A DNA stretch of 64,000 bases, taken from NCBI GenBank assembly GCA_031082125.1, contig JAVHLM010000003.1, forward strand, positions 288,842-352,841, given 5' to 3'. Source of the stretch: Vulcanimicrobiota bacterium. Lineage in GTDB: Bacteria; Vulcanimicrobiota; CADAWZ01; Ess09-12. Below the pieces are notes generated by a model. The model was not told the DNA's origin. It made no database searches and was given only the letters and a program-made list of their open reading frames with translations. Made by a program: the position numbers and the translations under genes. Shown in pieces: positions 36,611 to 52,742 of the stretch. Positions within the stretch are counted from its first letter, which is position 1; the number at the start of each line of letters is the position of its first letter.

Positions 36611-36942
36611 ATAATTGGCCTGAAGTCTGATCGGCTTACCCTGCTTCCGAGTAGCCGCTTCAGGCTGATAATGATGGTATGAGGGAGGCAAGCGAGCCAT
36701 GCCCTCATTATGGAAGCAGAGTGTGCAGATACCATGGTGTGTTGAAAGGAGTCTTCATTGCGGTGGGCGAATTTCAGTATTTCAATGCGGTATTCGCCAG
36801 GGCCTTGAAAATATGGCTCTCTATAAAGATACCCGCGTCAATATGCGAAGCCACCTGATAATATCTCTCCCTGCGGGAAAGAATGCCGGCCGCATTTCAT
36901 TGAAAAGCCTGTGTGCACAGACAGTGAGAAGGAGGACCCCTC

Positions 36943-38190: not shown

Positions 38191-38242
38191 AAGCCCGGGG
38201 AACTGCGAAAGCGGTAAGAATATAAAAGAAAGGAGGGATGAC

Positions 38243-38530
38243 ATGTCTTTGGAAAAAGCGAAAGATGCGCTGAAGAAGATCATGAATGATCCGGACTTCA
38301 GCAGGAAGATGATCAATGTGAAGAGTGATCAGGAAGCGATAGAGCTCCTCTCTTCCCATGGCTTCAAGTTTACCAAGGAAGAATTCGAAAAGGCGAAGCA
38401 TGAGATGAGACAGGCTGTTATCAGCGACGCTGAGCTCGCAGGCGTGGCTGGAGGAAGCGACAGCTCCAACAAAACAGCTTATCCGGTTGCGAACAGTGTG
38501 ACAGTCGGAGCGGCGGCGGCTGCTTTCTAG
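38243..38530 (+). CDS. Nif11-type RiPP precursor peptide with Gly-Gly leader cleavage motif
   Basis: AGGAGG 7 nt before the ATG. Leader MSLEKAKDALKKIMNDPDFSRKMINVKSDQEAIELLSSHGFKFTKEEFEKAKHEM is a Nif11-family leader. ELAGVAGG is the double-glycine motif. Predicted core is SDSSNKTAYPVANSVTVGAAAAAF (24 aa). Confidence 0.8.
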   Translation: MSLEKAKDALKKIMNDPDFSRKMINVKSDQEAIELLSSHGFKFTKEEFEKAKHEMRQAVISDAELAGVAGGSDSSNKTAYPVANSVTVGAAAAAF

Positions 38531-38614
38531 AAGGCCATGAAGGGGCACACCGGCATCAGAGCGGTGTGCCCCTCATGAATTCCCATGAAGCCTTACAGGG
38601 CGGGAGGAATGTTC

Positions 38615-40009: not shown

Positions 40010-40024
40010 TGAAAGGAGGCTTTT

Positions 40025-41899
40025 ATGACCCGCAAGCCCGTTGATGTGCTGCTTCTCAACCCGCCCCTCAGCCTGCCGATGCCCTATCTGAGCATCCCTG
40101 TCCTTGCCTCGTACCTCAGGTCGCAGGGAATCAGCGTTGCCGCGTACGACGTGAACGGCGAGTTCTATTACCGCTTCATCACAAGAGAAAACGTACGCAG
40201 AGGGATCTCCCACGCGGCGGAGAGGCTCCAGGTGCTCAACGGCAGGGAAGAGCTGCGCTTCACCGAGATGATTGAGTATATCTCCAGTTACTACTACCTC
40301 ACGGAAGTGGAGAAAAACCTCCCCAAGGTCACGGCCTATCTTTTCCCCTTCTCGGACTGGAAACTGCTCCAGCAGCTTGATATCGACAAGCTTTTGATGA
40401 CCCTCGCAACTCTCCCTTATTTCCCGGAGATCCTGGTCACAAAGCCCCAGTTCATGTACACAAGCCCTTACTATGAGTTCTCATCGAAAGAGATTATGGA
40501 GAGCACAGGCCATGAGAGCTTTTATTCCGCCGCGGTGAGGGAGATCATGGAAGATCTCCTCAGTGAGTATGACCCGAAACTCATCGGTATCTCGCTCGCC
40601 TTCAGCGTACAGGCCCTTCCCGCATTCCTGATGGCGCGGTTCATCAAGGAGATTAGGCCTGAGTGCCACCTCACCATAGGGGGGACCTTCGTCTCATCGT
40701 ACATGCGCAGCCTCAGGGACGACACGCTCTTCCGCCATGTGGACAGCTTCGTGCTTGACGAGGGGGAGTTCCCTCTTGTGCAGCTTTTGAGGGAGTACGC
40801 CGGGGGAAAGCCCGACCTCAGAAAGGTTCAGAACCTCATCTTTGCCGAGAAGGGAGAGGTGATCTATACCGGGCCTGCCGAGCCCTTTGACCTGGAGAAG
40901 TCCTCCGCGCCTGACTACGGGGTTTTCCCCCTTGAGAAGTACACGGTGCCCCGCGAGGACCTCATGATACTCTTCAGGATCGCGAGGGGCTGTCCCTGGC
41001 AGAAGTGCACCTTCTGCAGGACCGACATCCCCCAGTGCAGCAACTTCCAGCAGCCCTCACCGGAGCTGCTCTATGAACAGTTCCGGGAGGTAGTGAAACA
41101 GACGGGGGCGCGCCGCTATTACTTCACCTCCGACAGCGCCGATCCGCTGGTTCTGGAATATTTTGCAAGGAGAATCATTGACGACGGCTTGAAAATAGAC
41201 TGGTACTGCCACACCCGTGTTGACCTGAGGCTTACCAGGGAGCGCTGCGAGCTTTACGGGAAATCAGGGTGCACCGGCATCTATCTCGGTGTTGAGACCT
41301 TCAACGACAGGATACTGAAACTGATGAACAAGGGCATCACTTCTGAGTGTGCAGACCGGGTCCTCCGCCAGGTTGAAGGCGCCCTGGACCTCCGCCTCTA
41401 CATGATGGTGGGCTTCCCCGGCGAGACCAGAGAAGAGGCCCTTGAAGACTTCCGCAGAGTGCAGGAATATCTGAAGCTCGGCCTTATCAAGGACTACCAC
41501 TTCTCACCGGTGCAGATACTGCAGGGCTCCGCCATGTACCGGGACCTCGAAAAATACGGCATCACCAGCCTCATCACCACCGAGGGGGCCGATCTCGAGG
41601 GCGAGGTAAGCAACTTCACAAGCAGCGGGATGTCGCTGCAGCAGGTCATCGAATTTTTCCAGCAGTACGCTGCCGACCGCAGCAAGATCTTCCCGGAGTT
41701 CTTCTCCTCGGAGGGCCGGGAGCACCGGAGCCTCCGGATCAATGGCCGCGAGGTGGAGGCTGCCTTTGACATCGCTCAGATCGTGAGGACGGTGGACAGC
41801 CTCTGGGAGTTCGCGTACCTCACCAAGTCAAGATGGCTGGCCCTCGGCGAGAGCCGCATCGCCCCCCTGAAGCCCATGCTCACCGGGATGAGGCAGTGA
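40025..41899 (+). CDS. B12-binding-domain radical SAM protein, paralog 1 of 3
   Basis: N-terminal B12-binding Rossmann region (VDVLLLNPPLSLPMPYLSIPVLASYLRSQGISVAAYD). Cys cluster ARGCPWQKCTFCRTD has CX4CX2C spacing, checked against the DNA frame. About 620 aa. Confidence 0.8.
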   Translation: MTRKPVDVLLLNPPLSLPMPYLSIPVLASYLRSQGISVAAYDVNGEFYYRFITRENVRRGISHAAERLQVLNGREELRFTEMIEYISSYYYLTEVEKNLPKVTAYLFPFSDWKLLQQLDIDKLLMTLATLPYFPEILVTKPQFMYTSPYYEFSSKEIMESTGHESFYSAAVREIMEDLLSEYDPKLIGISLAFSVQALPAFLMARFIKEIRPECHLTIGGTFVSSYMRSLRDDTLFRHVDSFVLDEGEFPLVQLLREYAGGKPDLRKVQNLIFAEKGEVIYTGPAEPFDLEKSSAPDYGVFPLEKYTVPREDLMILFRIARGCPWQKCTFCRTDIPQCSNFQQPSPELLYEQFREVVKQTGARRYYFTSDSADPLVLEYFARRIIDDGLKIDWYCHTRVDLRLTRERCELYGKSGCTGIYLGVETFNDRILKLMNKGITSECADRVLRQVEGALDLRLYMMVGFPGETREEALEDFRRVQEYLKLGLIKDYHFSPVQILQGSAMYRDLEKYGITSLITTEGADLEGEVSNFTSSGMSLQQVIEFFQQYAADRSKIFPEFFSSEGREHRSLRINGREVEAAFDIAQIVRTVDSLWEFAYLTKSRWLALGESRIAPLKPMLTGMRQ

Positions 41900-43794
41900 T
41901 GAAGAAAGAAGCAGAGGTGCTCCTCATCAATCCCCCCTTCGCAGAGCCGCGGCCCTATATCAGCATCCCCACGCTTGTTTCATATCTTGAGTCCCGGGGC
42001 ATCCGCACCGCGGCATATGATCTCAACTGCGAGTTTTTCTACCGCTTTCTCACAAGGGAGAGGATCCGCAGGGGCATAGAATATGTTTCGGAGAGGTTCC
42101 TCGAGCTTAACGGCAGAGATGAGCTCGCCTTCAGGGAGATGCTTGAATACACGGTATGCTGCGATTTGCTCAGGGACATGGAGGAGCACCTGGGGAAGCT
42201 CACCCTGGCGCTCCTGCCTTTTTCAGATTTCCAGATACTCAGGAGCCTGGAGCTTGAGAGCCTGCTCAGCGGCCTCACGACAGCCCCCTATTTTCCCGAG
42301 CTCCTGATCTCGAAGCCCCAGTTCACTTATGCAAGCCCCTATTTCGAGTACTCCACGGCCGACATCGCGGAGAGCACGGGCCATGAGAGCTTTTATTCCG
42401 CCCTCTTAAGAGAGATAATCGCTGAAATACTCGACGAGTATGAGCCCAGGGTGGCGGGCATCTCAATAGTGCTCACAGAGCAGGTGGTGCCTGCTTTCCT
42501 TGCGGCACGCATCATCAAGGAGTTGAAGCCTGACCTTCATGTAACGGTCGGCGGGCCCTTTGTCTCCACTTATCTGAAGGATCTCAAGAACACGGTGCTC
42601 TTTGATTACGTGGACAGCCTGGTCTTTGACGAGGGTGAGCTCCCCCTCGAGCAGCTCGCCAGGGAGCTCGCGGGCACGAAGCCCGACCTCGGGAGAGTGC
42701 AGAACCTCGCATATCTGAAAAACGGGAGCCTTGTATCCACTCCCCCGGCAGAAACACTTCCTGCCGAGGCATCGCCTCCTCCCGACTACAGGGCCCTTCC
42801 CCTGGACAGGTATCTTGTCTCAGAAAGAAACGCCGAGATGCTCTTCAGGCTCTCGAAGGGATGCTCGTGGCACCGCTGCACCTTCTGCAGGACCGACATC
42901 GCGATGTGCCGGGAATACCGGCAGGCCCCTCATTCCTTCGTCTATGAGAGCCTGCTCGAGGTCATCAGGGACACGGGGTGCGGCAGGTTCCGCTTTACCA
43001 GCGAAGATTCTGACCCGCTGCTCCTTGAGCATATCTCGAAGAGGCTCCTGGAAGACGGCATATCCATAAAGTGGCGATGCCACGCACGCGTTGACGCGCG
43101 GTTCACCAGGGAGCGCGGCGAGCTCTACCGCAAGGCGGGGTGCACGAGCCTTTACCTCGGCGTGGAATCTTTCAGCGACAGGATCCTGCGCATGATGAAC
43201 AAGGGGATTACCTGCGGGCTCATTGACAGGGTCCTCACAGAGCTCGGCGGCGGCGTTCCCGTGCGCCTCTATATGATGGTGGGATTTCCGGGGGAGACTG
43301 AAGAAGAGGCGCTCGCCGGGTACGGGAAGGTGCGCTCCCTTCTTGAGCAAGGCCTTATCGGCGACTATAAGTACTCTATCTTCGAGATGCAGTCAGGATC
43401 AGAAGTGGGGGAGCACCCGGAGCGTTTCGGCCTCAGTGATCTTAGCCGTTACCCGCGCTCGGACCTGCCCTCTGAGATACTGGAGTTCGAAAGCAGAGGG
43501 ATGCCCAGGGAACGGGCTCTCATGCTGGCCGCAGAGTTCGAGAAAAACAGGAGAGAGTGGGATCCCCAGCTGGACAGGGTCTGTGAGCGCTATGAAGAGA
43601 CGGTTGAGCACGTCACTGTGAAGGGAGACCCCGTGGAGGTGAGGTTCAACGTCAAGGAGATACTGGAGAGAATGGCCCATTCCACGGGGCTCTATTTCCT
43701 CCCCCGGATCGGGGAATGGATACGGTACGGGGAACAGCATATCACCCCTGTCAGGGCTGCCCGCCGGGCGTCGCAGCCGCTCAGCACTGTATGA
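41899..43794 (+). CDS. B12-binding-domain radical SAM protein, paralog 2 of 3
   Basis: ATGA overlap with paralog 1. SKGCSWHRCTFCRTD. Collinear similarity to paralog 1 throughout (for example SPYYEFS/SPYFEYS, ESTGHESFYSA in both, YMMVGFPGET in both). Confidence 0.8.
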   Translation: MKKEAEVLLINPPFAEPRPYISIPTLVSYLESRGIRTAAYDLNCEFFYRFLTRERIRRGIEYVSERFLELNGRDELAFREMLEYTVCCDLLRDMEEHLGKLTLALLPFSDFQILRSLELESLLSGLTTAPYFPELLISKPQFTYASPYFEYSTADIAESTGHESFYSALLREIIAEILDEYEPRVAGISIVLTEQVVPAFLAARIIKELKPDLHVTVGGPFVSTYLKDLKNTVLFDYVDSLVFDEGELPLEQLARELAGTKPDLGRVQNLAYLKNGSLVSTPPAETLPAEASPPPDYRALPLDRYLVSERNAEMLFRLSKGCSWHRCTFCRTDIAMCREYRQAPHSFVYESLLEVIRDTGCGRFRFTSEDSDPLLLEHISKRLLEDGISIKWRCHARVDARFTRERGELYRKAGCTSLYLGVESFSDRILRMMNKGITCGLIDRVLTELGGGVPVRLYMMVGFPGETEEEALAGYGKVRSLLEQGLIGDYKYSIFEMQSGSEVGEHPERFGLSDLSRYPRSDLPSEILEFESRGMPRERALMLAAEFEKNRREWDPQLDRVCERYEETVEHVTVKGDPVEVRFNVKEILERMAHSTGLYFLPRIGEWIRYGEQHITPVRAARRASQPLSTV

Positions 43795-45629
43795 AAAAAC
43801 CTGTTGACGTGCTTCTCATCAATCCTCCCTTCTCAAGGCCCGATGAGCCTGTGATAGGCATCGCCACCCTCGCGGCATATCTCAAGACGAGGCAGATCAC
43901 TGTCGAGGCGAAAGATGCAAGCCTCGAGCTCTTTCGCAGAACAGTAACGAATGACTGCATCAATGAAGAGAGAGCCTATGCCGGAGAGAGGTTCACGGAG
44001 CTCAACGGCAGAAGCGTTCTCGACTTCTGCGGGATCTATGAGTACGTGAGGCTCTTTTCCCTGCTTCTGCGCCTGCAGGGGCTTCAGGGCATCTTTGATG
44101 ATGCCGGGGGGGATCTCTGGGAAAAGCTCAGGCATGCAAGCGACACGGTGAGGTCCTCGTTTCTCGAGCTTGCCACGGCATCGTTCTTTCCCCGCTTCAT
44201 ACTCTATGGAGGCCCGCCGACCTTCAGCTGCCACTCTCCTTACCACCACTTCTCCAAAGCCGACATACTCGCTTCCCTTGACGATCCCGCCTGGTACTCC
44301 GAGGCGCTCGAGAATACTATTGCACTGTACTTTGAGGAGATGAGCCCGCGGATCGCCGCAATCTCGGTGTCATACTTTAACCAGATTATTCCGGCCTTTC
44401 AGTGCGCCCGCATCATAAGAAGGATTGCGCCGGGTGTCCATATCAGCATGGGAGGATCGGCGGTCCAGATATTTTTTCGGAAGGTGAGGGATACCGGGCT
44501 CTTCGCCATTGTTGACACCATTGCCACCGGAGACGGCGAGGCGACGCTCGAGGCGCTCTCACGAGAGCTTCAGAGGAAGTCAGCCTCACTGGAGGCGGTG
44601 CCAGGAATCATCTACCTGTCAGGCACGATGGTGAAAAAAAATGACCCGGCGCCGCCCCTTCCTGTTGAAGGCCTCTCCCTCCCCGATTACAGGGCCTTCC
44701 CCCCGGAAGACTTCATGGCCGGCCCCGAGGCAATGCGCTTGCCCCTGAGGCTCTCGAAGGGGTGCTCCTGGGGCAGGTGCTCCTTCTGCCGGACCGAGCT
44801 TTCCATGATAAAAGCGTACCAGGCGCCGACGGCGGGGCGCCTCTTCCCGATGGTCACCGATTTCATCATTGCCACGGGGTGCCGGAAGATCCACTTTGCC
44901 GACGAGTCAATTGATCCCGAAGCCCTGGAGGAGATCTCGAAAGAGCTCATCGGCAGGGAACTCACCCTTGACTGGAACTTTCAGACGAGAATCAACAGAA
45001 AGATCACTGAGAGGCGCTGCAGGCTCTTCAGGGAGGCGGGATGCTCGGCCATCTCCTTCGGTGCAGAATCCTTCAGCGACAGGGTCCTTGGCCTGATGAG
45101 CAAGGGCATCACGGCAGAGCTCATAGAAAAGGTGCTCTATGAGGCCGGGAGCGTTCTGCCTGTCACCATCTTCATGATGGTGGGCTTCCCCGGCGAGACC
45201 GAAGAGGAAGCGAGGGAGAGCTTCAGGAAAGTCCGGGAGCTTGCCCGGGCAGGAGTGATCCGCGATTATATCTACTCCCCCTTCATTATCCACTCAGGCT
45301 CTGCAATGATGGCGGAGCCGGGGCGCTACGGCATCACCGAGCTGCACCACGGTCCTGGAGAAGACCTTTCACCTGATATCATCGATTATCAGTGCACCGG
45401 CATGGCAAGGGAAAAAGCCAGGGAGCTCTTCATCGAGTTTTCCCGGAGCCAGGCAGGCCGCCGGCCCTGGCCGCCGGAGGTCAGGATAGGAAAAAATACC
45501 GTTCCGCGGAGGTTTGACGTGGAAGAAATGATGGGGATCATTGCCCGGGAGACCTCCATGCGCCCTGCGATGCCCCTCTACCGCCTGATCATCACGGCAG
45601 AAGCGTCGCTTGCTCCTGAATCCATATGA
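43791..45629 (+). CDS. B12-binding-domain radical SAM protein, paralog 3 of 3
   Basis: ATGA overlap with paralog 2. SKGCSWGRCSFCRTE. The family block FMMVGFPGETEEEA is shared. Confidence 0.8.
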   Translation: MKKPVDVLLINPPFSRPDEPVIGIATLAAYLKTRQITVEAKDASLELFRRTVTNDCINEERAYAGERFTELNGRSVLDFCGIYEYVRLFSLLLRLQGLQGIFDDAGGDLWEKLRHASDTVRSSFLELATASFFPRFILYGGPPTFSCHSPYHHFSKADILASLDDPAWYSEALENTIALYFEEMSPRIAAISVSYFNQIIPAFQCARIIRRIAPGVHISMGGSAVQIFFRKVRDTGLFAIVDTIATGDGEATLEALSRELQRKSASLEAVPGIIYLSGTMVKKNDPAPPLPVEGLSLPDYRAFPPEDFMAGPEAMRLPLRLSKGCSWGRCSFCRTELSMIKAYQAPTAGRLFPMVTDFIIATGCRKIHFADESIDPEALEEISKELIGRELTLDWNFQTRINRKITERRCRLFREAGCSAISFGAESFSDRVLGLMSKGITAELIEKVLYEAGSVLPVTIFMMVGFPGETEEEARESFRKVRELARAGVIRDYIYSPFIIHSGSAMMAEPGRYGITELHHGPGEDLSPDIIDYQCTGMAREKARELFIEFSRSQAGRRPWPPEVRIGKNTVPRRFDVEEMMGIIARETSMRPAMPLYRLIITAEASLAPESI

Positions 45630-45645
45630 CAGGGAGGAGAAAAAC

Positions 45646-46746
45646 GTGTTCACAGAAAAGAGCCGCCTTTCCCTCAAGAGAACCATATACTCGGTGATGC
45701 TTGACGGCAAAGATCTCGTGCTTCTTTGCACCCCCTGCGAGCCCGTGGTGCTGAAGGAGCTCTCACCTTTCAGAAGGGAACTCCTCATTCTGCTTGACGG
45801 GAGGCGCACCGCGGGAGAGATCATGCAGGAGCTGAACGCGCGGGGCCATCGGTGCATTTTCAGCAAGGTGAGGGAAGAGCTTGATCGGCTCGATGAGTGG
45901 CTCCTTCTGGAAGAGGAGGGTGATGCTCCTTTGCCGGAGGATACAGAGCATGCGGGGCGTAACGACCGCACGCGCCTGTGGTTCGCCGCCAGGAGGACCT
46001 CAGGTGCCTCCTTTGCCCGCCAGGCAGAGAGAGATCTCCAGTCGGCCCATATCGTCCTCTTCGGCCTGGGAGGGCTGGGCTCGCAGCTCTTCACCCAGCT
46101 CCTGCTGACAGGCATCGGTGAGATCACCGCCGTTGACTGCGAGAAGGTGGAGGAGAGCAACCTGAACAGGCAGAGCCTCTTCTACGAGAGCAACGTGGGC
46201 CGCCTGAAGACGGAGGCTGCGGCGGAGCGGGCCCGGCTGATGAACAGCTCAGCATCCATTCATTTTGTGGATAAGAGAATCGCCTCGGCTGGAGACTTCG
46301 CCTCACTGATGGCCCCTGCGAGCCTGGCGCTCCTCGCCGCCGATACTCCCCGCGACATGATATTCGACTGGATGAACGAGGCCAGTTACACGACAGGCGT
46401 GCCGGTGCTCTACAGCAACGGTGTCCTCCAGTCCTCCATGGGGATCGGCCCGCTGGTGATCCCTGGCAGGACGGCGTGCTATCAGTGCTCGATGCCCGAA
46501 GGCGCCCGTTTTGAAGACCCCCTCGTGGAGCAGATCAACAGGCGGCACTGCCACGGGGTGATACTCCCTCCTCTTGCCATGTGCGCGGGTCTTATGGTGC
46601 TTGAGCTCGTGAGGCATCTCACTGGATGCGAACCCTGCCGGATTTATGACCGCAGGCTTCACATGGACTTCAGAAATTACCGGATGTGGTTCCAGGATAT
46701 AGAAAAGCGCCGGAGCTGCCCTTTCTGCGAACAGAGAGCGCCATGA
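45646..46746 (+). CDS. E1-like (ThiF/MoeB/HesA-family) protein with N-terminal PqqD-like RRE domain
   Basis: GGGAGGAG + 6 nt + GTG start. The N-terminal ~90 aa (YSVMLDGKDLVLL...ELLILLDGRRTAGEIMQELNARG) resemble RiPP recognition elements. E1 Rossmann motif IVLFGLGGLGSQLF...ITAVDCEKVEESNLNRQ. Paired CxxC zinc motifs (CYQC...CPFC). Confidence 0.75.
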   Translation: MFTEKSRLSLKRTIYSVMLDGKDLVLLCTPCEPVVLKELSPFRRELLILLDGRRTAGEIMQELNARGHRCIFSKVREELDRLDEWLLLEEEGDAPLPEDTEHAGRNDRTRLWFAARRTSGASFARQAERDLQSAHIVLFGLGGLGSQLFTQLLLTGIGEITAVDCEKVEESNLNRQSLFYESNVGRLKTEAAAERARLMNSSASIHFVDKRIASAGDFASLMAPASLALLAADTPRDMIFDWMNEASYTTGVPVLYSNGVLQSSMGIGPLVIPGRTACYQCSMPEGARFEDPLVEQINRRHCHGVILPPLAMCAGLMVLELVRHLTGCEPCRIYDRRLHMDFRNYRMWFQDIEKRRSCPFCEQRAP

Positions 46747-46807
46747 CAGGCTGCAGGCTCCCCGCCGGTGAATTGGCGCCCGGCAGGCTTCCTGAGGTGT
46801 GCCTTGG

Positions 46808-49711
46808 CTAGGTGAGCTGGCGGTCCGCCAGCTTCCTGAAGGTGCCCTCGACGCTCATGAGCTCTTTGAAGGTGCCTGCCTGCACGATCCTCCCTTTCTC
46901 CAGCACATAGATCCTGTCGGCCTTCACCACGGTGCTGAGCCTCTGTGCTATTACTATCTTTGTGGCCTTGAGAGTGAGAAGCTGTTCCGTCACCACGCTC
47001 TGGACCCTGTTGTCAAGAGAGCTCGTCGCTTCATCGAAGAGCAGTATTCTCGGCTTTTTCGCCAGGGCCCGGGCTATCAGGAGCCTCTGCTTCTGGCCTC
47101 CTGAGAAAGTCTGTTCCCCTTCCATGACCACGGTGTGCATTCCCATCGGCATGGCCTTGATATCCTGGTCTATGCCGGCTGTCCTTGCTGCCTCCCACGC
47201 GTCATCGAGGGAGAGCTCCACCGAGCCCGAGATGTTGGAAAAGATATCGCCGGCCATCAGCTCGCTTTTCTGCAGCACTGCTCCAATCTGGCTCCTCACG
47301 GCCGAGATGTCGAGGGTCCCGAGGTCTCTCCCGTCATAGTAAAGGGCCCCCTGCTCGGGCGCCTCAAAGCCGAGGAGGCACCTGAAAAGGGTTGATTTCC
47401 CTGATCCCGAGGGCCCCACGAAGGCAATAAACTCGCCGGGCTTCGCCTGGAAGGTGACGCTCTTCAGCACCATGGGACCGTCGGTCCTGTAACGGAAAGA
47501 GAGATTGCTCGCCTCCACGGCACCATGGAGCTCGCCGGGGTCAAGCTTCTCCTCGTCAACCTCCTGTAATGCCTCAAATATAGGCTTCATCCTGTCGTAG
47601 AGGGGAACGCTCCTTACGAGCTCCCCCGCAATGGCACCCAACTGGATCATGGCGGCAAGAAACCCGGTGAAGGCGGCGTTGAAAGCGAGAAAATTCCCCA
47701 GGCTCATGGAGGTCCCTCCGATGACCTCAGCGTTATGCTCCATGGTGGCGGCGAGAGCAAAAATTGCGCCTGCGGACAGGAGAGGGAGCATTGAGGTGAA
47801 GACCTCGAGACGGGCGCCCACAAGGCCGGCTTTATAGGAAAAGTTTTTCTGACGCGAGAACTTCCCGGCCCATTCTGAAAAAGCGAGAGCCTGTGCCCCT
47901 GCTATCTTTATCTTGCCGATCCCTTTCACAAGGTCAAAGACGAAGCCATAGAGCTGTCCCTGGATATTGATCTCTCTGCGGGCGAGGGAAAGCTGGAGAG
48001 AGCTGGCAAGAATAATCGCCGCGAGCAGTGCCAGGGCAAAGAGAGCGGCAGTTATTGCAAGACTGCTCTGATAATAGAAAAGGATCAGAAAGCTGAAGGA
48101 GGCATAGATCGCCCCCTGTATGGCCGGTAAGGCAAGGCCCTCGAAGAACTGGCTCATGATGGAGTCGAAGCCCAGGGAGCGCATGGCGAGATCACCTGAC
48201 GAGTACCTGTTGAAGAAAGCGCAGGGCAGGGCCATGAGCCGATCCCACAGGGCGCACTGGATGACGCCCTTGGCCGTTCCTTCCATCCTGAGAAAAGCAA
48301 CACCCTGGGTAAACTGAAAGACTGCCACCGCAAGAGAGCCCGCCAGAAGGGCCACGGAGAGCTGCACCAGGAGGGGCATCTCCCTTTCCGGGACTATCAA
48401 GTCAAAGATTATCCCCGTCGCCACAGGAATAAGCAGGCCGAATAACCCCATTGCCATCGCCACAAAAACCGATACCTTCATGTCGGATTTAAGCAGCGGC
48501 AGGCTGATGAGCAGGATATCCCGTAGGGAAAGAGGTTTATTGGGAAAGGGCCTGTAGAGCATGTAAGCCTTAGTATCAATGGAGGCGGCTCTCTCCCTGT
48601 CAACAGGAAACTCGGAAATTTCACCTGAAGCAACCCCCTTATAGCGTCCTTTACAAGGCAGAAGAGCCAGAGGCTTCCCCGATTCCTTGAGAAAACCGAC
48701 CATGGGCCCCCTTTCCCTCTTCCACCAATCACCTTCGAGGGTGACTCTCCGCGTCCTCACCTTTGACGCTCTTGAAATGGCCGAAAGAGAGAGGGGTGGA
48801 GCATTCTCCCCATGCGAAGCAGGAGGCTCTTTCAGCGTGAAATGCATATATTCAGCCACACGCCGGCAAGCGTTGAAAAGAGGCGATTCGCCGGAAGGCG
48901 CCTCCTCCCCGGGTGAGCCTGCCTTCTCCGTTGATGAGGCGAGATAATGGAGGGCTTTACTCAATACCTGGCCCTCATGCTGCCTCCTCTGCTCAATGGT
49001 CTCCGATTCCCTGCGCTCCTGCCCGTCCATCGAATGGCCGATGGCGCAGAGCACCGCCCTGTGAAACGCGCTGAGCCCGGCAAGCTCCCGGTCTTCCGCG
49101 ACGTAGTGGGCGGTAGTCAATGACTTCAGCCTTGAGGGCTCGCGGCATGATGCCCATCCAAGGCGGGAGAGGGGGAAGTATGAGCCGGAAAGGGCGCATG
49201 GCTCTCCATCGATGCCCATAAATGCCGAGGCCCCTTCCCGGTGTGAGATCCACAGGACGGGAGCGAGTGAGCTGATGGCGTCATCCTTCTCAGCGAGGTA
49301 CTCTTCACCTTCGGTGAGAAGCCTCAGCTTTCTTGGAAGTGATGCCGTTCTGAGAAGCCCCCTCGAAAGCGCCTCGATCCATCGGTCAGCAAGAGGGACA
49401 AGCTCCGCGCCAACTGCTGAGATACTTGTCTCTTGGAGCTCTGTCCCGTTTTCGCCCACGGCGAGGAGTGCGATGCCCTGAAAGGGCTCGAAACCGAAGA
49501 GAGCCTCATCCTTCTCAATTGTGCAGACATAATGACGGTATGAGGCCGCGCCGCCATGCCTCACGGCAAAGATATTGACACGGTTTTTCCTCACTATCCA
49601 GACAGACCCCGTTCCTTCGGCAAAAAAAGGCTCATTTCCGCCGACGGCTCTTCTGCCTTCAGGTCTGTTGCTCTCGTTTCTGCCGTCTCCTTCCATGCTC
49701 CGCTCCCTCAA
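46808..49711 (-). CDS. ABC transporter permease/ATP-binding protein with ~420-aa N-terminal cytoplasmic extension (NHLM/Nif11 bacteriocin-export type, non-peptidase subunit)
   Basis: C-terminal half has six TM helices and an NBD (Walker A GPSGSGKST, signature FSGGQKQRL, Walker B ILLFDEAT). The N-terminal 420 aa have no C39 Cys/His motif and no recognised domain. Confidence 0.75.
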   Translation of the reverse strand: MRERSMEGDGRNESNRPEGRRAVGGNEPFFAEGTGSVWIVRKNRVNIFAVRHGGAASYRHYVCTIEKDEALFGFEPFQGIALLAVGENGTELQETSISAVGAELVPLADRWIEALSRGLLRTASLPRKLRLLTEGEEYLAEKDDAISSLAPVLWISHREGASAFMGIDGEPCALSGSYFPLSRLGWASCREPSRLKSLTTAHYVAEDRELAGLSAFHRAVLCAIGHSMDGQERRESETIEQRRQHEGQVLSKALHYLASSTEKAGSPGEEAPSGESPLFNACRRVAEYMHFTLKEPPASHGENAPPLSLSAISRASKVRTRRVTLEGDWWKRERGPMVGFLKESGKPLALLPCKGRYKGVASGEISEFPVDRERAASIDTKAYMLYRPFPNKPLSLRDILLISLPLLKSDMKVSVFVAMAMGLFGLLIPVATGIIFDLIVPEREMPLLVQLSVALLAGSLAVAVFQFTQGVAFLRMEGTAKGVIQCALWDRLMALPCAFFNRYSSGDLAMRSLGFDSIMSQFFEGLALPAIQGAIYASFSFLILFYYQSSLAITAALFALALLAAIILASSLQLSLARREINIQGQLYGFVFDLVKGIGKIKIAGAQALAFSEWAGKFSRQKNFSYKAGLVGARLEVFTSMLPLLSAGAIFALAATMEHNAEVIGGTSMSLGNFLAFNAAFTGFLAAMIQLGAIAGELVRSVPLYDRMKPIFEALQEVDEEKLDPGELHGAVEASNLSFRYRTDGPMVLKSVTFQAKPGEFIAFVGPSGSGKSTLFRCLLGFEAPEQGALYYDGRDLGTLDISAVRSQIGAVLQKSELMAGDIFSNISGSVELSLDDAWEAARTAGIDQDIKAMPMGMHTVVMEGEQTFSGGQKQRLLIARALAKKPRILLFDEATSSLDNRVQSVVTEQLLTLKATKIVIAQRLSTVVKADRIYVLEKGRIVQAGTFKELMSVEGTFRKLADRQLT

Positions 49712-49715
49712 TTAC

Positions 49716-51914
49716 TCACATCTCTATCAGGTTTCTGTAAAGTCCCTCTTCCTTGATGAGGGACTCATGGGTCCCTCTCTGCGCGACCTTGCCGCCGTCG
49801 AGGACGACGATCTCGTCACAGTCCCTTATGGTGCTCAGCCTGTGGGCAATGATGACGGTGGTGCAGCCTCTTCTTCTCAGGTTGCCGTCAATGGCGAGCT
49901 CCGTGAGGGGGTCCAGTGCGCTTGTAGCCTCGTCAAGGACTATGATGCGGGGGTTCGTGACGAGAGCCCGCGCGATCTCCAGTCTCTGGCGCTGCCCGCC
50001 GCTGAAGTTTCTCCCCCCTTCCTCGACGAGGCTTTCATACCCGGACTCCCTCTCGTTGATGTCGTCGTGGATGGAGGCGTCCTTTGCCGCCAGTACGATG
50101 TCGGTTTCCTCTACGGCGGTCTCCCAGAGTGTCAGATTCTCCCTGATGGTGCCCTCGAAGAGCATGATGGTCTGATCCACCTGCGAGAGGCTGCTCTTCA
50201 GGATACCTGCCGGGACCTCTGCGAGAGGCTTGCCGTCAAAGAGCACCTCTCCCTGCCAGGGGGCGTAGAGGCCGCAGAGTATCTTTGAGACCGTCGATTT
50301 CCCGCTGCCTGACGGGCCTATGATGGCAACCCTCGAGCCGGGAGAGAGGGAAAGGCTGAAGCCCTGGAGGAGGGGCGGGTCAAAAGGGCCGTATCCGAAG
50401 GTAATGTCCCTCAGCTCGACAGTCCCTTCAAGTTTTCCGGCCCTGGCCGCGCCATCACCGTTGGTCTTACCGGGCACTTCCCCTTCATCGCTCTCCCGGC
50501 GGCCCGGCAGAGCGCCTTTCACTTTGTAGCGGAACACGTCATCAATCCTGCTTATGGTGCCCTCAATCTCCTGGATGCTCGCGCCGAGGTTCACCAGGTT
50601 ATTGATGGGAGTCACGAAGAGGGCCATAAGGCTCTGGTATGCCACAAGGGACCCTATGGTCATCTTGCCGTTCATCACCATGAGGCTTCCCAGAATCAGT
50701 ATGATGACGTTTCCCAGCGATGAGAGTGACGCAGGCAGGATGGAGAGCGCAGATGTCAGGAAATTGAGCTCCTGCTCGCCGTTTATCACCCTTGTGAAAA
50801 TCCCGGCCCACCGGGAGAAGAAATCCGACTCAGTGCCGCTCGCCTTGAGGGTCTCTATGTAGCGGAGCCCGGAGATTGACGTTCCGACGAGCTTGCCACG
50901 GTCGTTGAGAAGCCTCAGGTTCCCATGGACCCTTCTGTCTGAGACATATTTAAGGGCCACGAAATTGAGGGCCGTGAGAAAGAGGCAGATGGCCGTGAGG
51001 CGCGCGCTGTAGAGAAAGAGGATGACAAGGTAGAAGAGGGCAAGAAACACATTCAGGATCGTGACGGAGAGCTGGTTGGAAAGGAGCTGGGCTATCCTGT
51101 CGTTGAGGGAGACCCTCGAGACGATGTCGCCGGCGAAGCGTTGCTCGAAAAACTCTACAGGAAGCCTGAGGAGGCGCCAGAGGTACTTGCCGGACTCGCT
51201 GACCGAGAGGTGCGTTTCCAGCCTCAGCAGGCAGAACCTCTGCAGCCACGTGAGGAATCCCCGGAGCACTGCGATGATGAGCATTGCCGTTACCAGGGGA
51301 AAAAGCATGGTCTCGACGCCGCCTGAAAAGATACCATCTATGAATATCTTGGTGAAGAGAGGGACTGCCATGCCGGGCAGCACCAGGGCAAGTCCCGCGA
51401 GGAGGGCGAAGAAAAGGGCTTTCCGCGAGCCCCCCACCCTTGTGTTCAGGCTGTCGATAATGGTCCTTCTGCTCCCCTCTCTCCTGAAGTCCGGCCCCGG
51501 CTTGAAGGTGAGCACCACGCCGGTGAATGAGTCGCTGAATTCCTGAGGGGACACCTTTCTCGGTCCGAAGGCGGGATCGTTGATATAAAACCACTCCCTG
51601 CTGAAGCCTTCGACAACCACGAAGTGATTGAAATTCCAGAAGACGATGAGAGGAAATTCCTGCCCGCAGAGCTCGTCAATATCGAGACTTAAAGCCTCGG
51701 TGACAAGACCATACTCCCGTGCGGTCTTCACTATGTTGAGGGCTTTGCTCCCGTTGCGCGTCACGCCGCATTCTATTCTCAGCTTTTCAAGAGGCACATT
51801 TCTGCCGTAGAAGGAGAGCACGATGCCCAGCGCCGCCGCCCCGCATTCAAGGGCTTCCATCTGGAGCACTGTCGGTGTCTTTACTCTCCGGGAGCGTTTT
51901 TTTTCAGCGTTCAT
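49716..51914 (-). CDS. bacteriocin-processing ABC transporter with N-terminal C39 cysteine peptidase domain (SunT/LagD-like)
   Basis: N-terminal C39 domain TVLQMEALECGAAALGIVLSFYG (catalytic Cys) ...FNHFVVVEG (His). Six TM helices. NBD (GPSGSGKST, FSGGQRQRL, IIVLDEAT). Confidence 0.85.
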   Translation of the reverse strand: MNAEKKRSRRVKTPTVLQMEALECGAAALGIVLSFYGRNVPLEKLRIECGVTRNGSKALNIVKTAREYGLVTEALSLDIDELCGQEFPLIVFWNFNHFVVVEGFSREWFYINDPAFGPRKVSPQEFSDSFTGVVLTFKPGPDFRREGSRRTIIDSLNTRVGGSRKALFFALLAGLALVLPGMAVPLFTKIFIDGIFSGGVETMLFPLVTAMLIIAVLRGFLTWLQRFCLLRLETHLSVSESGKYLWRLLRLPVEFFEQRFAGDIVSRVSLNDRIAQLLSNQLSVTILNVFLALFYLVILFLYSARLTAICLFLTALNFVALKYVSDRRVHGNLRLLNDRGKLVGTSISGLRYIETLKASGTESDFFSRWAGIFTRVINGEQELNFLTSALSILPASLSSLGNVIILILGSLMVMNGKMTIGSLVAYQSLMALFVTPINNLVNLGASIQEIEGTISRIDDVFRYKVKGALPGRRESDEGEVPGKTNGDGAARAGKLEGTVELRDITFGYGPFDPPLLQGFSLSLSPGSRVAIIGPSGSGKSTVSKILCGLYAPWQGEVLFDGKPLAEVPAGILKSSLSQVDQTIMLFEGTIRENLTLWETAVEETDIVLAAKDASIHDDINERESGYESLVEEGGRNFSGGQRQRLEIARALVTNPRIIVLDEATSALDPLTELAIDGNLRRRGCTTVIIAHRLSTIRDCDEIVVLDGGKVAQRGTHESLIKEEGLYRNLIEM

Positions 51915-51917
51915 GCA

Positions 51918-52742
51918 CTAAAACCTGACTGGAAGCATGAGGGAGAGCGGCGTCACCGTTTTCAAGATAACGGTGGCGGAGCAGGGAGTGACATTGCTGA
52001 TCTTGATGGCGGGCCCCCTGCCTGACGACCACTTGTAGCCGCTCACGGTGGAGGCATCCCTGGTGGGGATGGCGCGGATTCCGATCTTCGGGGTTCCTTT
52101 CAGGCAGATCTCTGCCAGGGTCTCATTATGGACTTTCCTCATCACCTCGGCCCTGGTGACAGGAAACTCCGTGATGCCGGCGACCTTCCCGTAAATGAAG
52201 CCGAAGTCCTGCCTGTTCACCGTCGAGGGGGATATCAGAATGTCCATGCCGGGCGTTACAAGCTTTCCGTTCTCCATTGAAATGAAAATGACGGCATCTA
52301 TTTCTGAAGTTTCGGCCTGAACGGTCCCGAAGGTTTCTTCCTGCCTTATGAAGTTACCCTCGTCAAAAGGGAGCGATACGAGAATTCCCGTCATGGGGCT
52401 TTTGATTTCGAAGGCATCGCCGCCGGAGGAATCGGTCCTTCGCACCCTTGCGAGCACCTGGTCCCTTGTAACCCGATCTCCCTGCTTCACCGGCAGGCAT
52501 TCTATGGTTCCTGCCAGGCCGGCGATGATTCCTTTCATTTCCCCCATGCCCAGCAGCATTCCCTCTCCGCTTATGGTGATGGGAATTCTTCCAAAAATCA
52601 GCCACAGGATCGCGAAGAGTATAAGGACCCCTGAGGCGGCGAGGGCAAGCCACCCCCTGGAGCTTACAATGGTGACGCACTGGTCGAGCTGCTCCGGCGA
52701 GGTGAGCTTCTGTAAGGCCTCTTTCCTGTATATCTCCCTCAT
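51918..52742 (-). CDS. HlyD-family membrane-fusion/secretion protein (bacteriocin export accessory)
   Basis: MREIYRKEALQKLTSPEQLDQ then a single TM helix and a beta-barrel/lipoyl-like periplasmic domain. It lies immediately upstream of and is co-oriented with the two ABC genes. Confidence 0.75.
   Translation of the reverse strand: MREIYRKEALQKLTSPEQLDQCVTIVSSRGWLALAASGVLILFAILWLIFGRIPITISGEGMLLGMGEMKGIIAGLAGTIECLPVKQGDRVTRDQVLARVRRTDSSGGDAFEIKSPMTGILVSLPFDEGNFIRQEETFGTVQAETSEIDAVIFISMENGKLVTPGMDILISPSTVNRQDFGFIYGKVAGITEFPVTRAEVMRKVHNETLAEICLKGTPKIGIRAIPTRDASTVSGYKWSSGRGPAIKISNVTPCSATVILKTVTPLSLMLPVRF

What the first reader, a model, noticed from the sequence alone, without database searches (positions are those of the whole stretch)
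45646..46746. E1/ThiF-like protein carrying an N-terminal PqqD-like RiPP recognition element
The segment SLKRTIYSVMLDGKDLVLLCTPCEPVVLKELSPFRRELLILLDGRRTAGEIMQELNARG has the wHTH/beta-strand pattern of RREs. It is fused to a complete E1 adenylation fold (GLGGLGS...SNLNRQ, CxxC...CxxC). Leader-binding is therefore probably provided by this protein for the whole pathway. It starts at a GTG following a strong GGGAGGAG. The ORF-track ATG at 45610 would overlap the radical SAM gene and lacks an RBS.
Basis: partly seen in the sequence, partly recalled or inferred. Interest (0 to 1): 0.6.

Follow-up and report, generated by a model that had tools for sequence, protein, structure and literature searches.

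The report
Peptide-binding ThiF-like adenylating enzyme
The gene encodes a two-domain enzyme of an already known kind (a leader-peptide-binding domain fused to an ATP-using ThiF/E1 domain, as in MccB and PaaA), here in an uncharacterised thioamide and methylation peptide pathway where it most likely activates the peptide's conserved C-terminal phenylalanine.

Summary
Window 45646-46746 (+) encodes a 366-aa protein. Residues 1-92 are a PqqD-like RiPP recognition element (RRE). Residues ~105-366 are a complete ThiF/E1 adenylation domain. The GTG start after GGGAGGAG is right, and NCBI annotates the same 366-aa product. This architecture is not new. It is that of the ThiF-like adenylyltransferases MccB, PaaA, GrcB, EnfB and IndF, and MccB and PaaA are the best sequence and structure matches over both domains. 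All ATP/Mg2+ and Zn-site residues are invariant in 53 homologues, so it looks catalytic, not a docking-only YcaO partner. Every relative with at least 37% identity that has enough flanking DNA lies with a thioamide-type YcaO, an unusually long TfuA, B12-radical SAM enzymes and, where the precursor region was captured, a Nif11 precursor. All six distinct precursor cores end in A-A-x-A-F. My best reading is that the RRE binds the Nif11 leader and the E1 domain adenylates the C-terminal Phe carboxylate for capture by a nucleophile. That nucleophile is unknown; a conserved Thr at -7/-9 is one candidate. It is only consistent with my finding no other RRE-like sequence in the cluster. Verdict: an uncharacterised member of a known enzyme kind, of moderate interest.

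The parts
45632..45639 (+). Shine-Dalgarno-like GGGAGGAG, 6 nt upstream of the GTG start
   Evidence: Read directly from the sequence.
45646..46746 (+). Gene for the 366-aa RRE-ThiF-like adenylyltransferase (stop codon included)
   Evidence: ORF. Identical to NCBI protein P0001 'ThiF family adenylyltransferase', 366 aa. AlphaFold model pLDDT 92.9.
45646..45921 (+). Residues 1-92: RiPP recognition element (strands then three helices; winged helix-turn-helix)
   Evidence: Profile hits to the PaaA N-terminus (8e-14) and to MusD, LynD, PqqCD, PbtF and TruD. Pfam PqqD or PaaA-like_N hits in family members. The 18 best Foldseek matches are all RREs.
45922..45957 (+). Residues 93-104: flexible acidic linker between the two domains
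   Evidence: pLDDT falls to 61 for residues 91-100. Homologues P0002 and P0004 carry low-complexity inserts of roughly 50-65 aa exactly here.
45958..46743 (+). Residues 105-366: E1/ThiF adenylation domain
   Evidence: Pfam ThiF 5.4e-39. Family profile against PDB: MccB 1.7e-64, PaaA 3.8e-62, ThiF 1e-49, MoeB 6e-48. Foldseek.
46063..46080 (+). GLGGLG (residues 140-145), nucleotide-binding glycine loop
   Evidence: G140, G142, G143 and G145 are invariant in 53 homologues.
46159..46173 (+). NLNRQ (residues 172-176), conserved E1 motif with the arginine that contacts ATP
   Evidence: N172, L173, R175 and Q176 are invariant. The assigned role rests on general knowledge of MoeB, ThiF and MccB.
46342..46344 (+). 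D233, the conserved E1 aspartate (Mg2+ ligand in MoeB, ThiF and MccB)
   Evidence: Invariant in 53 homologues. The assigned role rests on general knowledge.
46477..46488 (+). C278-x-x-C281, first half of the Cys4 zinc site
   Evidence: Both cysteines are invariant.
46717..46728 (+). C358-x-x-C361, second half of the Cys4 zinc site
   Evidence: C358 is invariant and C361 is at least 90% conserved.
46489..46560 (+). Residues 282-305: segment with clade-specific invariant residues (S282, P284, V294, I297, N298, R300, H301, H303, G304), a possible substrate or nucleophile pocket
   Evidence: Conserved in at least 9 of 10 clade members and in under 20% of the other 43 homologues. The function is inferred.
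38243..38530 (+). Nif11-leader precursor peptide (95 aa), the presumed substrate
   Evidence: Pfam Nif11 1.2e-8. NCBIfam TIGR03798 at 54.3 bits, above its 32.3 cut-off.
38456..38527 (+). Core peptide after the GG site: SDSSNKTAYPVANSVTVGAAAAAF. It ends in the conserved A-A-x-A-F and has Thr at -9
   Evidence: Six distinct homologous precursors all end A-A-x-A-F, with Thr at -7 or -9.
36943..38190 (+). YcaO, best matching the thioamide-forming type
   Evidence: Pfam YcaO 4e-58. NCBIfam McrA-thioamidation YcaO scores 156 bits against 98 bits for SagD. Co-conserved with the E1.
38585..40009 (+). TfuA with a conserved C-terminal extension of about 250 aa and unknown function
   Evidence: Pfam TfuA 5e-35 on residues 59-177. 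The extension is conserved in 8 loci and has no family or PDB match.
40025..45629 (+). Three tandem B12-binding radical SAM paralogues, probably C-methyltransferases
   Evidence: Pfam Radical_SAM plus B12-binding. The best or second-best NCBIfam model is TIGR03975, the RiPP C-methyltransferase family, but below its cut-off.
46808..52742 (-). NHLP/Nif11-type export and leader-cleavage set: ABC2, C39-peptidase ABC1 and a HlyD-like protein
   Evidence: TIGR03797 at 824 bits, TIGR03796 at 1014 bits and TIGR03794 at 218 bits, all above their cut-offs.

Best explanation
The gene encodes a catalytically competent ThiF-like adenylyltransferase of the MccB/PaaA/IndF kind.

**Proposed mechanism.**
1. 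The N-terminal RRE docks the Nif11 leader of the neighbouring precursor.
2. The E1 domain then uses ATP/Mg2+ to adenylate a carboxylate of the core peptide. This is most probably the free C-terminal carboxylate of the invariant ...A-A-x-A-F end.
3. The acyl-adenylate is captured by a nucleophile, giving a C-terminal macrocycle or other C-terminal modification. The nucleophile is not identified. Candidates are the conserved Thr at -7/-9 (macrolactone), a backbone amide or a YcaO-made thioamide near the C-terminus (imide, oxazolone or thiazolone type ring), or an external nucleophile.
4. This acts on a peptide that is also thioamidated by YcaO-TfuA and C-methylated by the B12-radical SAM enzymes, before cleavage at GG and export.

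**Shown:** fold, domains, intact active-site residues, gene linkage and the conserved C-terminus of the substrate.

**Inferred:** leader binding, the site of adenylation, the nucleophile and the order of steps.
For: **Two-domain match to known enzymes.** Foldseek gives MccB at E 1.8e-26 over 361 columns and PaaA at 9e-24 over 353 columns. The family profile gives MccB 1.7e-64 and PaaA 3.8e-62 over the full length, ahead of ThiF and MoeB.

**The RRE is confirmed** by profile and by structure.

**The active site is intact.** GxGGxG, NLxRQ, K188, D233 and the Zn cysteines are invariant or nearly so in 53 homologues. The docking-only relatives in azoline pathways have a perturbed ATP site and are non-catalytic (PMC11256085; PMC6395948; PMC12596934).

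**Gene linkage is strict.**
- Of the relatives with at least 37% identity, all 14 loci with usable flanks carry YcaO, a long TfuA and B12-radical SAM genes. They come from several lineages: Eremiobacterota/Xenobiia, Desulfatiglans, Vecturithrix and Desulfocapsa. Three further loci (L013, L017, L055) are short contigs cut off before those genes.
- A Nif11 precursor was found in 12 of the 14. In L009 and L010 the likely precursor region lies outside the DNA held.
- None of the loci with relatives at or below 35% identity has these neighbours.

**The substrate end is conserved.**
- All six distinct precursor cores stop immediately after A-A-x-A-F, while the rest of the core diverges.
- No Asp or Glu is conserved in the cores, and the L003 core has none. 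A side-chain carboxylate therefore cannot be the common substrate.
- Known C-terminus-activating relatives (MccB, EnfB, IndF) likewise have precursors that end in a conserved motif.

**Operon position.** The gene starts 16 nt after the last radical SAM gene on the same strand.
Against: - There is no biochemical evidence. The adenylation site and the nucleophile are inferred from six precursors, four of which come from related Eremiobacterota-type clusters.
- The cores are Ala-rich, so only the terminal Phe and the invariant end position carry much weight.
- The candidate Thr sits at -9 in three precursors and -7 in three, so ring size would not be conserved.
- Strict linkage to YcaO-TfuA would also be expected if the protein were a docking partner or a sulfur-relay E1.
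- Authors of a recent RRE-ThiF survey set aside YcaO-linked members as docking-only (PMC12150305).
Confidence: 0.6

Rival explanations
1. Docking-only scaffold. The protein only binds the Nif11 leader through its RRE and presents the peptide to YcaO-TfuA, and perhaps to the radical SAM enzymes. This is what the E1-like partners McbB and SagC, and the N-terminal part of LynD, do in azoline pathways.
For: - It carries the only RRE-like sequence detected in the cluster.
- It is strictly co-conserved with a YcaO.
- Docking E1-like partners of YcaOs are well established (PMC12596934 section 3.6; PMC5589413).
- YcaO-linked RRE-ThiFs were treated as docking domains in PMC12150305.
Against: - All nucleotide- and Mg-binding residues are invariant across 53 homologues, unlike the perturbed ATP sites of LAP partners.
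- It scores 25.3 bits against a 187.65 cut-off on the SagC-family model TIGR03603.
- Known docking proteins are absent from the 60 listed (best) PDB hits of the family profile.
- The YcaO is TfuA-paired, so it already has its usual partner.
- The E1 gene is neither adjacent nor fused to ycaO. It lies 7.4 kb and five genes away.
- No azoline dehydrogenase is present and the cores contain no Cys.
Confidence: 0.15
2. Sulfur-relay E1. The protein adenylates a carrier carboxylate so that it becomes a thiocarboxylate, which TfuA hydrolyses to feed sulfide to YcaO. The carrier would be a ThiS-like protein encoded elsewhere or, more exotically, the precursor's own C-terminus.
For: - TfuA-dependent thioamidation is reported to use a thiocarboxylated ThiS-like carrier (PMC13063428 citing Liu et al. 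2021).
- thiF, moeB and moaD genes lie near ycaO-tfuA in methanogens (PMC5589413).
- A rhodanese gene flanks one related cluster (L001).
- This E1 clade is strictly linked to an unusual long TfuA.
Against: - No ThiS/MoaD-like ORF, or any cluster ORF ending in Gly-Gly, was found in the window, and none is among the called genes of the related loci examined.
- The protein is far below the ThiF and MoeB equivalog cut-offs.
- It carries an RRE, which binds peptides rather than beta-grasp proteins.
- It is closer to MccB and PaaA than to ThiF and MoeB.
- The rhodanese gene is seen in only one cluster type.
Confidence: 0.1
3. Side-chain activation as in PaaA or GrcB. The E1 adenylates an Asp or Glu side chain inside the core to form an internal ring.
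For: PaaA and GrcB work this way. The window core has Asp2, and the L006 and L012 cores have Asp and Glu.
Against: No acidic residue is conserved in position across the six cores, and the L003 core (TLVQWAGVGVTAAASAF) has none at all. There is no follower sequence after the conserved end, as PaaP has.
Confidence: 0.05

Closest known systems
MccB (microcin C7 synthetase, E. coli; PDB 3H5N, 3H9G, 6OM4)
   Same: It has the same two-domain layout: an N-terminal peptide clamp (RRE) and an E1 adenylation domain with a Zn site. It is the best sequence match (3e-23 for the single sequence, 1.7e-64 for the family profile) and the best structural match (TM 0.80 over 361 columns). It acts on the C-terminal carboxylate of its peptide.
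   Different: Identity is about 20%. MccB needs a C-terminal Asn and makes a peptidyl-adenylate phosphoramidate through a succinimide. Here the C-terminus is Phe, the precursor has a roughly 70-aa Nif11 leader, and no mccC/D/E-type genes are present.
PaaA (pantocin A; PDB 5FF5)
   Same: It is an RRE plus ThiF-like enzyme. It is the only PDB protein whose N-terminal domain matches by sequence across its whole length (7.9e-14 for the RRE profile; full-length alignment 2-353).
   Different: PaaA activates Glu side chains in an internal EEN core that has a follower peptide. The cores here have no conserved acidic residue and no follower.
IndF, EnfB and GrcB (ThiF-like RiPP cyclases of Streptococcus and Enterococcus)
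   Same: They are RRE-ThiF enzymes that adenylate a peptide carboxylate and close a ring with an internal nucleophile. IndF and EnfB use the C-terminal carboxylate of precursors that end in a conserved hydrophobic motif (PMC12596934). The family alignment includes a Streptococcus RRE-ThiF at 24-26% identity, flanked by M13 peptidase and MFS genes (P0077).
   Different: Those are minimal clusters (precursor, ThiF, transporter, with or without a peptidase) and have no YcaO-TfuA. Their nucleophiles (Trp indole, backbone amide, Cys thiol) have no conserved counterpart here.
E1-like partner proteins of azoline-forming YcaOs (McbB, SagC/BalhC, N-terminal domains of LynD/TruD, Ocin-ThiF-like PbtF)
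   Same: They combine an RRE, an E1-like fold and genetic linkage to a YcaO. The isolated RRE model's best structural matches are TruD and LynD.
   Different: Those proteins are non-catalytic with a perturbed ATP site, and are adjacent or fused to an azoline-forming YcaO. Here the ATP site is intact, the YcaO is TfuA-paired, and the SagC-family model scores far below its cut-off.
Desulforegula conservatrix Nif11/TfuA-YcaO cluster (Malit et al. 2021, PMC8120280, Fig. 4D)
   Same: It appears to be the same cluster family as the related loci L001, L003 and L009. It has a Nif11 precursor, YcaO-TfuA, a B12-radical SAM enzyme, a GT4 glycosyltransferase, NHLP-type transporters and a gene listed as 'MoeB'.
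   Different: It was only catalogued. The 'MoeB' was not recognised as an RRE-ThiF enzyme and no product or function is known. The window's version lacks the glycosyltransferase and has three radical SAM genes.

Membership tests
RRE-ThiF-like adenylyltransferases of RiPP pathways (TLATs: MccB, PaaA, GrcB, EnfB, IndF) | N-terminal RRE (PqqD-like winged helix-turn-helix) | tested here: met
   Profile hits to PaaA-N, MusD, LynD, PqqCD and PbtF. Pfam PqqD or PaaA-like_N hits in family members. The 18 best structural matches are all RREs.
RRE-ThiF-like adenylyltransferases of RiPP pathways (TLATs: MccB, PaaA, GrcB, EnfB, IndF) | C-terminal ThiF/E1 adenylation fold | tested here: met
   Pfam ThiF at 134 bits against a 28.1 cut-off. 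Foldseek and PDB profile matches.
RRE-ThiF-like adenylyltransferases of RiPP pathways (TLATs: MccB, PaaA, GrcB, EnfB, IndF) | Intact nucleotide/Mg2+ site (glycine loop, NxxRQ arginine, Lys, Asp) and Cys4 zinc site | tested here: met
   G140, G142, G143, G145, N172, L173, R175, Q176, K188, D233, C278, C281 and C358 are invariant, and C361 is at least 90% conserved, in 53 homologues.
RRE-ThiF-like adenylyltransferases of RiPP pathways (TLATs: MccB, PaaA, GrcB, EnfB, IndF) | Encoded with a leader-bearing precursor peptide and an exporter | tested here: met
   Nif11 precursor at 38243-38530 and NHLP export genes. The same linkage appears in related loci.
RRE-ThiF-like adenylyltransferases of RiPP pathways (TLATs: MccB, PaaA, GrcB, EnfB, IndF) | ATP-dependent nucleotidylation of a peptide carboxylate | not testable with these tools
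   This needs an enzyme assay or mass spectrometry.
Microcin C-type MccB | Precursor ends in Asn, which is converted to a peptidyl-nucleotide phosphoramidate | tested here: not met
   All six distinct precursor cores end in Phe.
Pantocin-type PaaA | Internal Glu-Glu core with a follower peptide | tested here: not met
   There is no EE motif and no conserved acidic residue, and the peptide ends at the conserved motif.
E1-like docking partner of azoline-forming YcaO (SagC/McbB type) | Matches the SagC-family model above its cut-off | tested here: not met
   TIGR03603 scores 25.3 bits against a 187.65 cut-off, and only on residues 238-361.
E1-like docking partner of azoline-forming YcaO (SagC/McbB type) | Degenerate, non-catalytic nucleotide site | tested here: not met
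   The site is fully conserved here. The degenerate state in LAP partners is taken from the literature.
E1-like docking partner of azoline-forming YcaO (SagC/McbB type) | Adjacent or fused to a cyclodehydratase YcaO that acts on Cys/Ser/Thr-rich cores, usually with an FMN dehydrogenase | tested here: not met
   The YcaO is five genes away, is paired with TfuA, and best matches the thioamidation-type model. The cores have no Cys. None of the cluster genes scanned matches an FMN dehydrogenase.
E1-like docking partner of azoline-forming YcaO (SagC/McbB type) | Physical complex with YcaO and stimulation of its activity | not testable with these tools
   This needs pull-down and activity assays.
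Sulfur-carrier E1 (ThiF/MoeB) | Reaches the ThiF or MoeB equivalog cut-offs | tested here: not met
   TIGR02356 scores 88.9 against 275.25, and NF006444 scores 69.3 against 449.
Sulfur-carrier E1 (ThiF/MoeB) | Partner ThiS/MoaD (beta-grasp protein ending in Gly-Gly) encoded nearby | tested here: not met
   No such ORF was found in the cluster or elsewhere in the window by a crude ORF screen. None is called in the related loci. A carrier encoded elsewhere in the genome cannot be excluded.

The most novel reading that the evidence does not exclude
This could be the first catalytic ThiF-like adenylyltransferase that works together with a thioamide-forming YcaO-TfuA pair. On this reading it activates the invariant C-terminal Phe of a thioamidated, C-methylated Nif11 peptide and makes a C-terminal structure not yet seen in RiPPs. 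Examples would be a Thr-to-C-terminus macrolactone, or a ring closed by a thioamide sulfur or nitrogen. Its RRE would also serve as the shared leader dock for the other enzymes. A still bolder version is that the peptide's own C-terminus is thiocarboxylated and feeds sulfur to the long TfuA and YcaO.
Probability: 0.3. Interest if true: 0.6.

Novelty: new member of a known kind. Interest (0 to 1): 0.4.

Why it matters
RRE-ThiF fusions are a recognised and fast-growing RiPP enzyme class. Only a handful of their reactions are known: phosphoramidate, indolizidone, thiolactone, imide and indolylamide formation. This clade is uncharacterised and has a clear, conserved substrate end (A-A-x-A-F).

It also sits in a pathway type that a recent survey filtered out on the assumption that YcaO-linked ThiF proteins only dock peptides (PMC12150305). 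Showing activity here would add a reaction to the class. It would also correct that filter for TfuA-type YcaO clusters.

The product would be a thioamidated, poly-C-methylated peptide from uncultivated Eremiobacterota and Desulfobacterota-type bacteria. The practical value is as a genome-mining lead rather than a conceptual surprise.

Tried and rejected
- **TfuA extension, homologue search.** A search with the C-terminal extension alone returned nothing. I could therefore not build an allowed alignment to predict its structure. Pfam, NCBIfam and PDB sequence searches of it were also empty.
- **Promoters and terminators.** The scan of 36400-47000 gave counts equal to shuffled sequence. It says nothing about operon limits.
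- **Precursor homologue search.** It returned only three close relatives. The C-terminal motif therefore rests on six distinct precursors.
- **L009 and L010.** The precursors of the Desulfatiglans and Vecturithrix clusters were not found. The DNA held begins at ycaO in both: L009's contig starts 275 bases upstream of it, and L010 is cut by the flank limit.
- **IndA-like precursor.** I looked for one ending in NWYFI next to the Streptococcus homologue P0077 and did not find it among ORFs of at least 20 aa. I therefore do not call P0077 IndF.
- **ThiS/MoaD.** The search was a crude ORF screen for small non-overlapping ORFs and for ORFs ending in GG. It is negative but not exhaustive.
- **Antisense ORF.** I rejected the antisense ORF at 45369-46160 (263 aa) as a by-product of GC-rich sequence, given the strong homology on the + strand.
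Full report
**1. The observation**

The + strand ORF ending at 46746 is real.
- The upstream radical SAM gene stops at 45627-45629.
- GGGAGGAG lies at 45632-45639, and GTG at 45646 follows six bases later.
- The identical protein is in NCBI as a 366-aa 'ThiF family adenylyltransferase' from a Candidatus Eremiobacteraeota MAG.
- Homologues of 37-81% identity keep the residues that follow it (xSLKRTIYSV).
- Some database entries instead start at the internal Met18, which would remove a conserved strand.

**2. The two domains**

*E1 domain.*
- Pfam ThiF matches residues 123-357 at 5.4e-39.
- In an alignment of 53 full-length homologues (A1), the invariant positions are G140, G142, G143, G145, N172, L173, R175, Q176, K188, D233, C278, C281 and C358. 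C361 is nearly invariant.
- From general knowledge of MoeB, ThiF and MccB, these are the glycine loop, the arginine-finger motif, the phosphate-binding lysine, the Mg2+ aspartate and the Cys4 zinc site.

*N-terminal domain.*
- The window's N-terminal 100 residues alone give only marginal hits: PaaA-like_N at E 0.07-0.08 and RiPP_bind_ApyI at E 0.0017.
- A profile of 28 homologous N-terminal domains (A2) finds the PaaA N-terminus at 7.9e-14. It then finds MusD, LynD, PqqC/D, PbtF and TruD.
- 12 of the 28 members individually hit Pfam PqqD, and 10 of 28 hit PaaA-like_N.

*Structure.*
- AlphaFold2 gives a confident model (pLDDT 92.9). It has strands at 7-10, 15-19, 23-27 and 34-36, and helices at 41-49, 56-65 and 72-84. 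A low-confidence linker (residues 91-100) follows, then the E1 fold.
- Foldseek aligns the whole model with MccB (E 1.8e-26, TM 0.80, 361 columns) and PaaA (353 columns). ThiF and MoeB cover only the C-terminal ~264 columns.
- The N-terminal domain modelled alone (pLDDT 92.8) has RREs as all 18 of its best PDB matches: TruD, LynD, ThcOx, TbiB1 with bound leader, PbtF, TbtB and MibB.
- Two close homologues (P0002, P0004) carry low-complexity inserts of roughly 50-65 residues exactly in the linker. This marks the domain boundary.

**3. Context in the window**

On the + strand, in order:
- YcaO (36943-38190).
- A Nif11-leader precursor (38243-38530).
- TfuA (38585-40009).
- Three B12-binding radical SAM paralogues (40025-45629).
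- The E1.

Convergent on the - strand are the three standard NHLP/Nif11 export proteins, all above their NCBIfam cut-offs.

The YcaO scores better on the McrA-thioamidation model (156 bits) than on the SagD model (98 bits).

After the GG cleavage site, the core peptide is SDSSNKTAYPVANSVTVGAAAAAF.

**4. Related loci**

Look-ups and scans gave 55 loci. I screened L001-L053 with the window's proteins.
- Of the E1 relatives with at least 37% identity, all 14 loci with usable flanks (L001-L006, L009-L012, L014-L016, L018) carry YcaO, a long TfuA of 449-474 aa and one to three B12-radical SAM genes.
- These loci come from Eremiobacterota/Xenobiia, Desulfatiglans, Vecturithrix and Desulfocapsa MAGs and from unassigned metagenome contigs.
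- L013, L017 and L055 are short contigs cut off before those genes.
- A Nif11 precursor was found in 12 of the 14. In L009 and L010 the DNA held begins at ycaO, so the likely precursor region was not captured.
- The more distant versions add a GT4-like glycosyltransferase of about 650 aa and an APS-kinase-like protein. L001 and L003 also have an alpha/beta hydrolase whose gene overlaps the E1 stop, and L001 has a rhodanese gene.
- None of the E1 relatives at or below 35% identity has YcaO, TfuA or radical SAM neighbours, including about ten with 8-10 kb flanks. Two that I inspected are minimal ThiF-type clusters, one of them with an adjacent MFS gene.

This is a distinct clade of the RRE-ThiF family, tied to thioamide-type clusters.

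**5. The substrate clue**

The six distinct precursor cores are:

| Locus | Core |
|---|---|
| window | SDSSNKTAYPVANSVTVGAAAAAF |
| L006 | DNHTSAAVPVAESITVGAAASAF |
| L012 | DNAHSAAVPIAESITVGAAAMAF |
| L014 | GDDTTTAAAFSAAAGATAAASAF |
| L001 | SALEWAAAGAGIGTAVASAF |
| L003 | TLVQWAGVGVTAAASAF |

- All stop immediately after A-A-x-A-F, while their N-terminal halves diverge.
- No acidic residue is conserved, and L003 has none.
- A Thr lies at -9 in three cores and at -7 in three.
- Every ThiF-like enzyme activates a carboxylate (PMC12596934), and the only conserved carboxylate here is the C-terminus. The C-terminal Phe is therefore the most likely adenylation site. MccB (Asn), EnfB (Ile) and IndF (Ile) act at the C-terminus in the same way.
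- The clade also has its own conserved residues in the segment after the first CxxC: S282, P284, V294, I297, N298, R300, H301, H303 and G304. Others are C331, Y334, R337, T234, R236 and F240. All are rare in the other homologues. These are candidates for a clade-specific substrate or nucleophile pocket, but that is inference.

**6. Rival readings**

*(a) Docking-only partner of YcaO.*
- This is the default assumption for YcaO-linked ThiF proteins (PMC12150305).
- Against it, the ATP site is intact, whereas LAP partners have a perturbed ATP site (PMC11256085) and are non-catalytic (PMC6395948).
- The SagC-family model scores 25 bits against a cut-off of 188.
- No docking E1-like protein appears among the 60 listed (best) PDB hits of the family profile.
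- The YcaO has TfuA as its partner.
- The E1 gene is not next to ycaO.
- A dual role, catalysis plus shared docking, remains possible.

*(b) Sulfur-relay E1.*
- TfuA uses thiocarboxylated ThiS-like carriers, and thiF or moeB genes lie near ycaO-tfuA in methanogens.
- Here, however, no ThiS/MoaD-like ORF is found.
- The protein is far below the ThiF and MoeB cut-offs.
- It carries a peptide-binding RRE.

*(c) Side-chain activation.* This is excluded as a common mechanism by the lack of any conserved Asp or Glu.

**7. The claim that this RRE binds the leader for the whole pathway**

Profile-profile comparison of the RRE alignment gave probabilities below 2% in every case. The comparison covered alignments of TfuA (with its extension), YcaO, the radical SAM enzymes, both ABC proteins and HlyD. 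The positive control scored 99.9%.

So the E1 carries the only recognisable RRE.
- The conserved 250-aa TfuA extension and the ~170-aa N-terminal regions of the radical SAM enzymes have no known fold assignment.
- Long NHLP-type leaders are reported to be recognised through other protein surfaces (abstract of PMC12455567).

**8. Comparison with what is known**

- The RRE-ThiF architecture has been structurally characterised since MccB (structures released 2009) and PaaA (released 2016).
- Two 2025 reviews cover the class (PMC12250964, PMC12596934).
- A cluster with the same make-up was pictured in a 2021 genome-mining paper: a Nif11 precursor, YcaO-TfuA, a B12-radical SAM enzyme, GT4 and a gene labelled 'MoeB' (PMC8120280, Fig. 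4D). It was not analysed further.
- The 2025 review of these enzymes (PMC12250964) contains none of the words YcaO, TfuA, thioamide or Nif11.

The protein is therefore an uncharacterised member of a known kind, in a pathway context that has been seen but not studied.

**9. Verdict**

- Best explanation: a catalytic, leader-guided adenylation of the precursor's C-terminal Phe (confidence 0.6 for a catalytic role on the peptide, lower for the exact site, low for the nucleophile).
- Interest is moderate (0.4). It is a good genome-mining lead that challenges the assumption that YcaO-linked ThiF proteins only dock peptides, but it is not a surprise to specialists.

Noticed in passing
window 39257-40006 (+), C-terminal half of TfuA (38585-40009): TfuA is 474 aa, whereas the NCBIfam TfuA-related model is 211 positions long. 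The extra ~250-aa C-terminal region, which I judge from the sequence pattern to be mostly helical, is conserved in all eight clade loci. It has no Pfam, NCBIfam or PDB match and no similarity to the RRE profile. Its strict co-occurrence with this E1 clade is unexplained.
   Followed up: partly
window 38456-38527 (+); L001 5358-5627; L003 9589-9846 (-); L006 2466-2750; L012 2537-2854; L014 2430-2708: All six distinct Nif11 precursor cores end in A-A-x-A-F directly before the stop codon and have a Thr at -7 or -9. The rest of the core is Ala/Val/Gly/Thr-rich and variable.
   Followed up: yes
window 40025-45629 (+): There are three tandem B12-binding radical SAM paralogues of 624-653 aa as listed (the ORF starts may be over-extended). 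Each has an N-terminal region of ~170 aa with no family match. Their closest NCBIfam models are RiPP C-methyltransferase (TIGR03975) and PhpK-type, both far below cut-off. More distant cluster versions have one to three copies.
   Followed up: partly
homologues P0002, P0003, P0004 (e.g. L006 10001-11248): Close homologues carry a low-complexity, Ser/Asp/Asn/Pro-rich insert exactly in the RRE-to-E1 linker (about 50-65 residues in P0002 and P0004, the two that were aligned). The linker therefore tolerates large length changes.
   Followed up: no
L001 1253-1894, 5740-8237 and 11061-11969; L003 4886-6829 and 11115-11918; L009 2897-4855 and 6689-7213: Distant versions of the cluster add a GT4-like glycosyltransferase of about 650 aa and an APS-kinase-like protein. 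In L001 and L003 an alpha/beta hydrolase gene overlaps the E1 stop codon, which suggests translational coupling. L001 also has a rhodanese gene upstream of ycaO. None of these is in the window.
   Followed up: partly
window 52911-55752 (-): Two adjacent M16-type peptidase-like genes (495 and 455 aa) lie directly downstream of the export genes on the same strand. They give weak hits to the YfmF/YfmH, pitrilysin and PqqF models. They could be part of the peptide pathway, for example in leader degradation.
   Followed up: no
window 51918-52742 (-): The HlyD-like secretion protein is only 273 aa. It matches the 421-position NHLP HlyD model in two pieces, the best one covering model positions 253-417. 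It seems to lack much of the middle of the usual protein.
   Followed up: no
window 45369-46160 (-): A 263-aa antisense ORF overlaps the start of the E1 gene and the end of the radical SAM gene. Its composition is Ser/Arg/Pro-rich and it has no support. It is probably a by-product of the high G+C content.
   Followed up: no
window 31084-34509 (+): A large TPR-CHAT protein (1141 aa) lies upstream of the cluster, separated from it by a BipA/TypA GTPase gene. It is probably unrelated to the peptide pathway.
   Followed up: no
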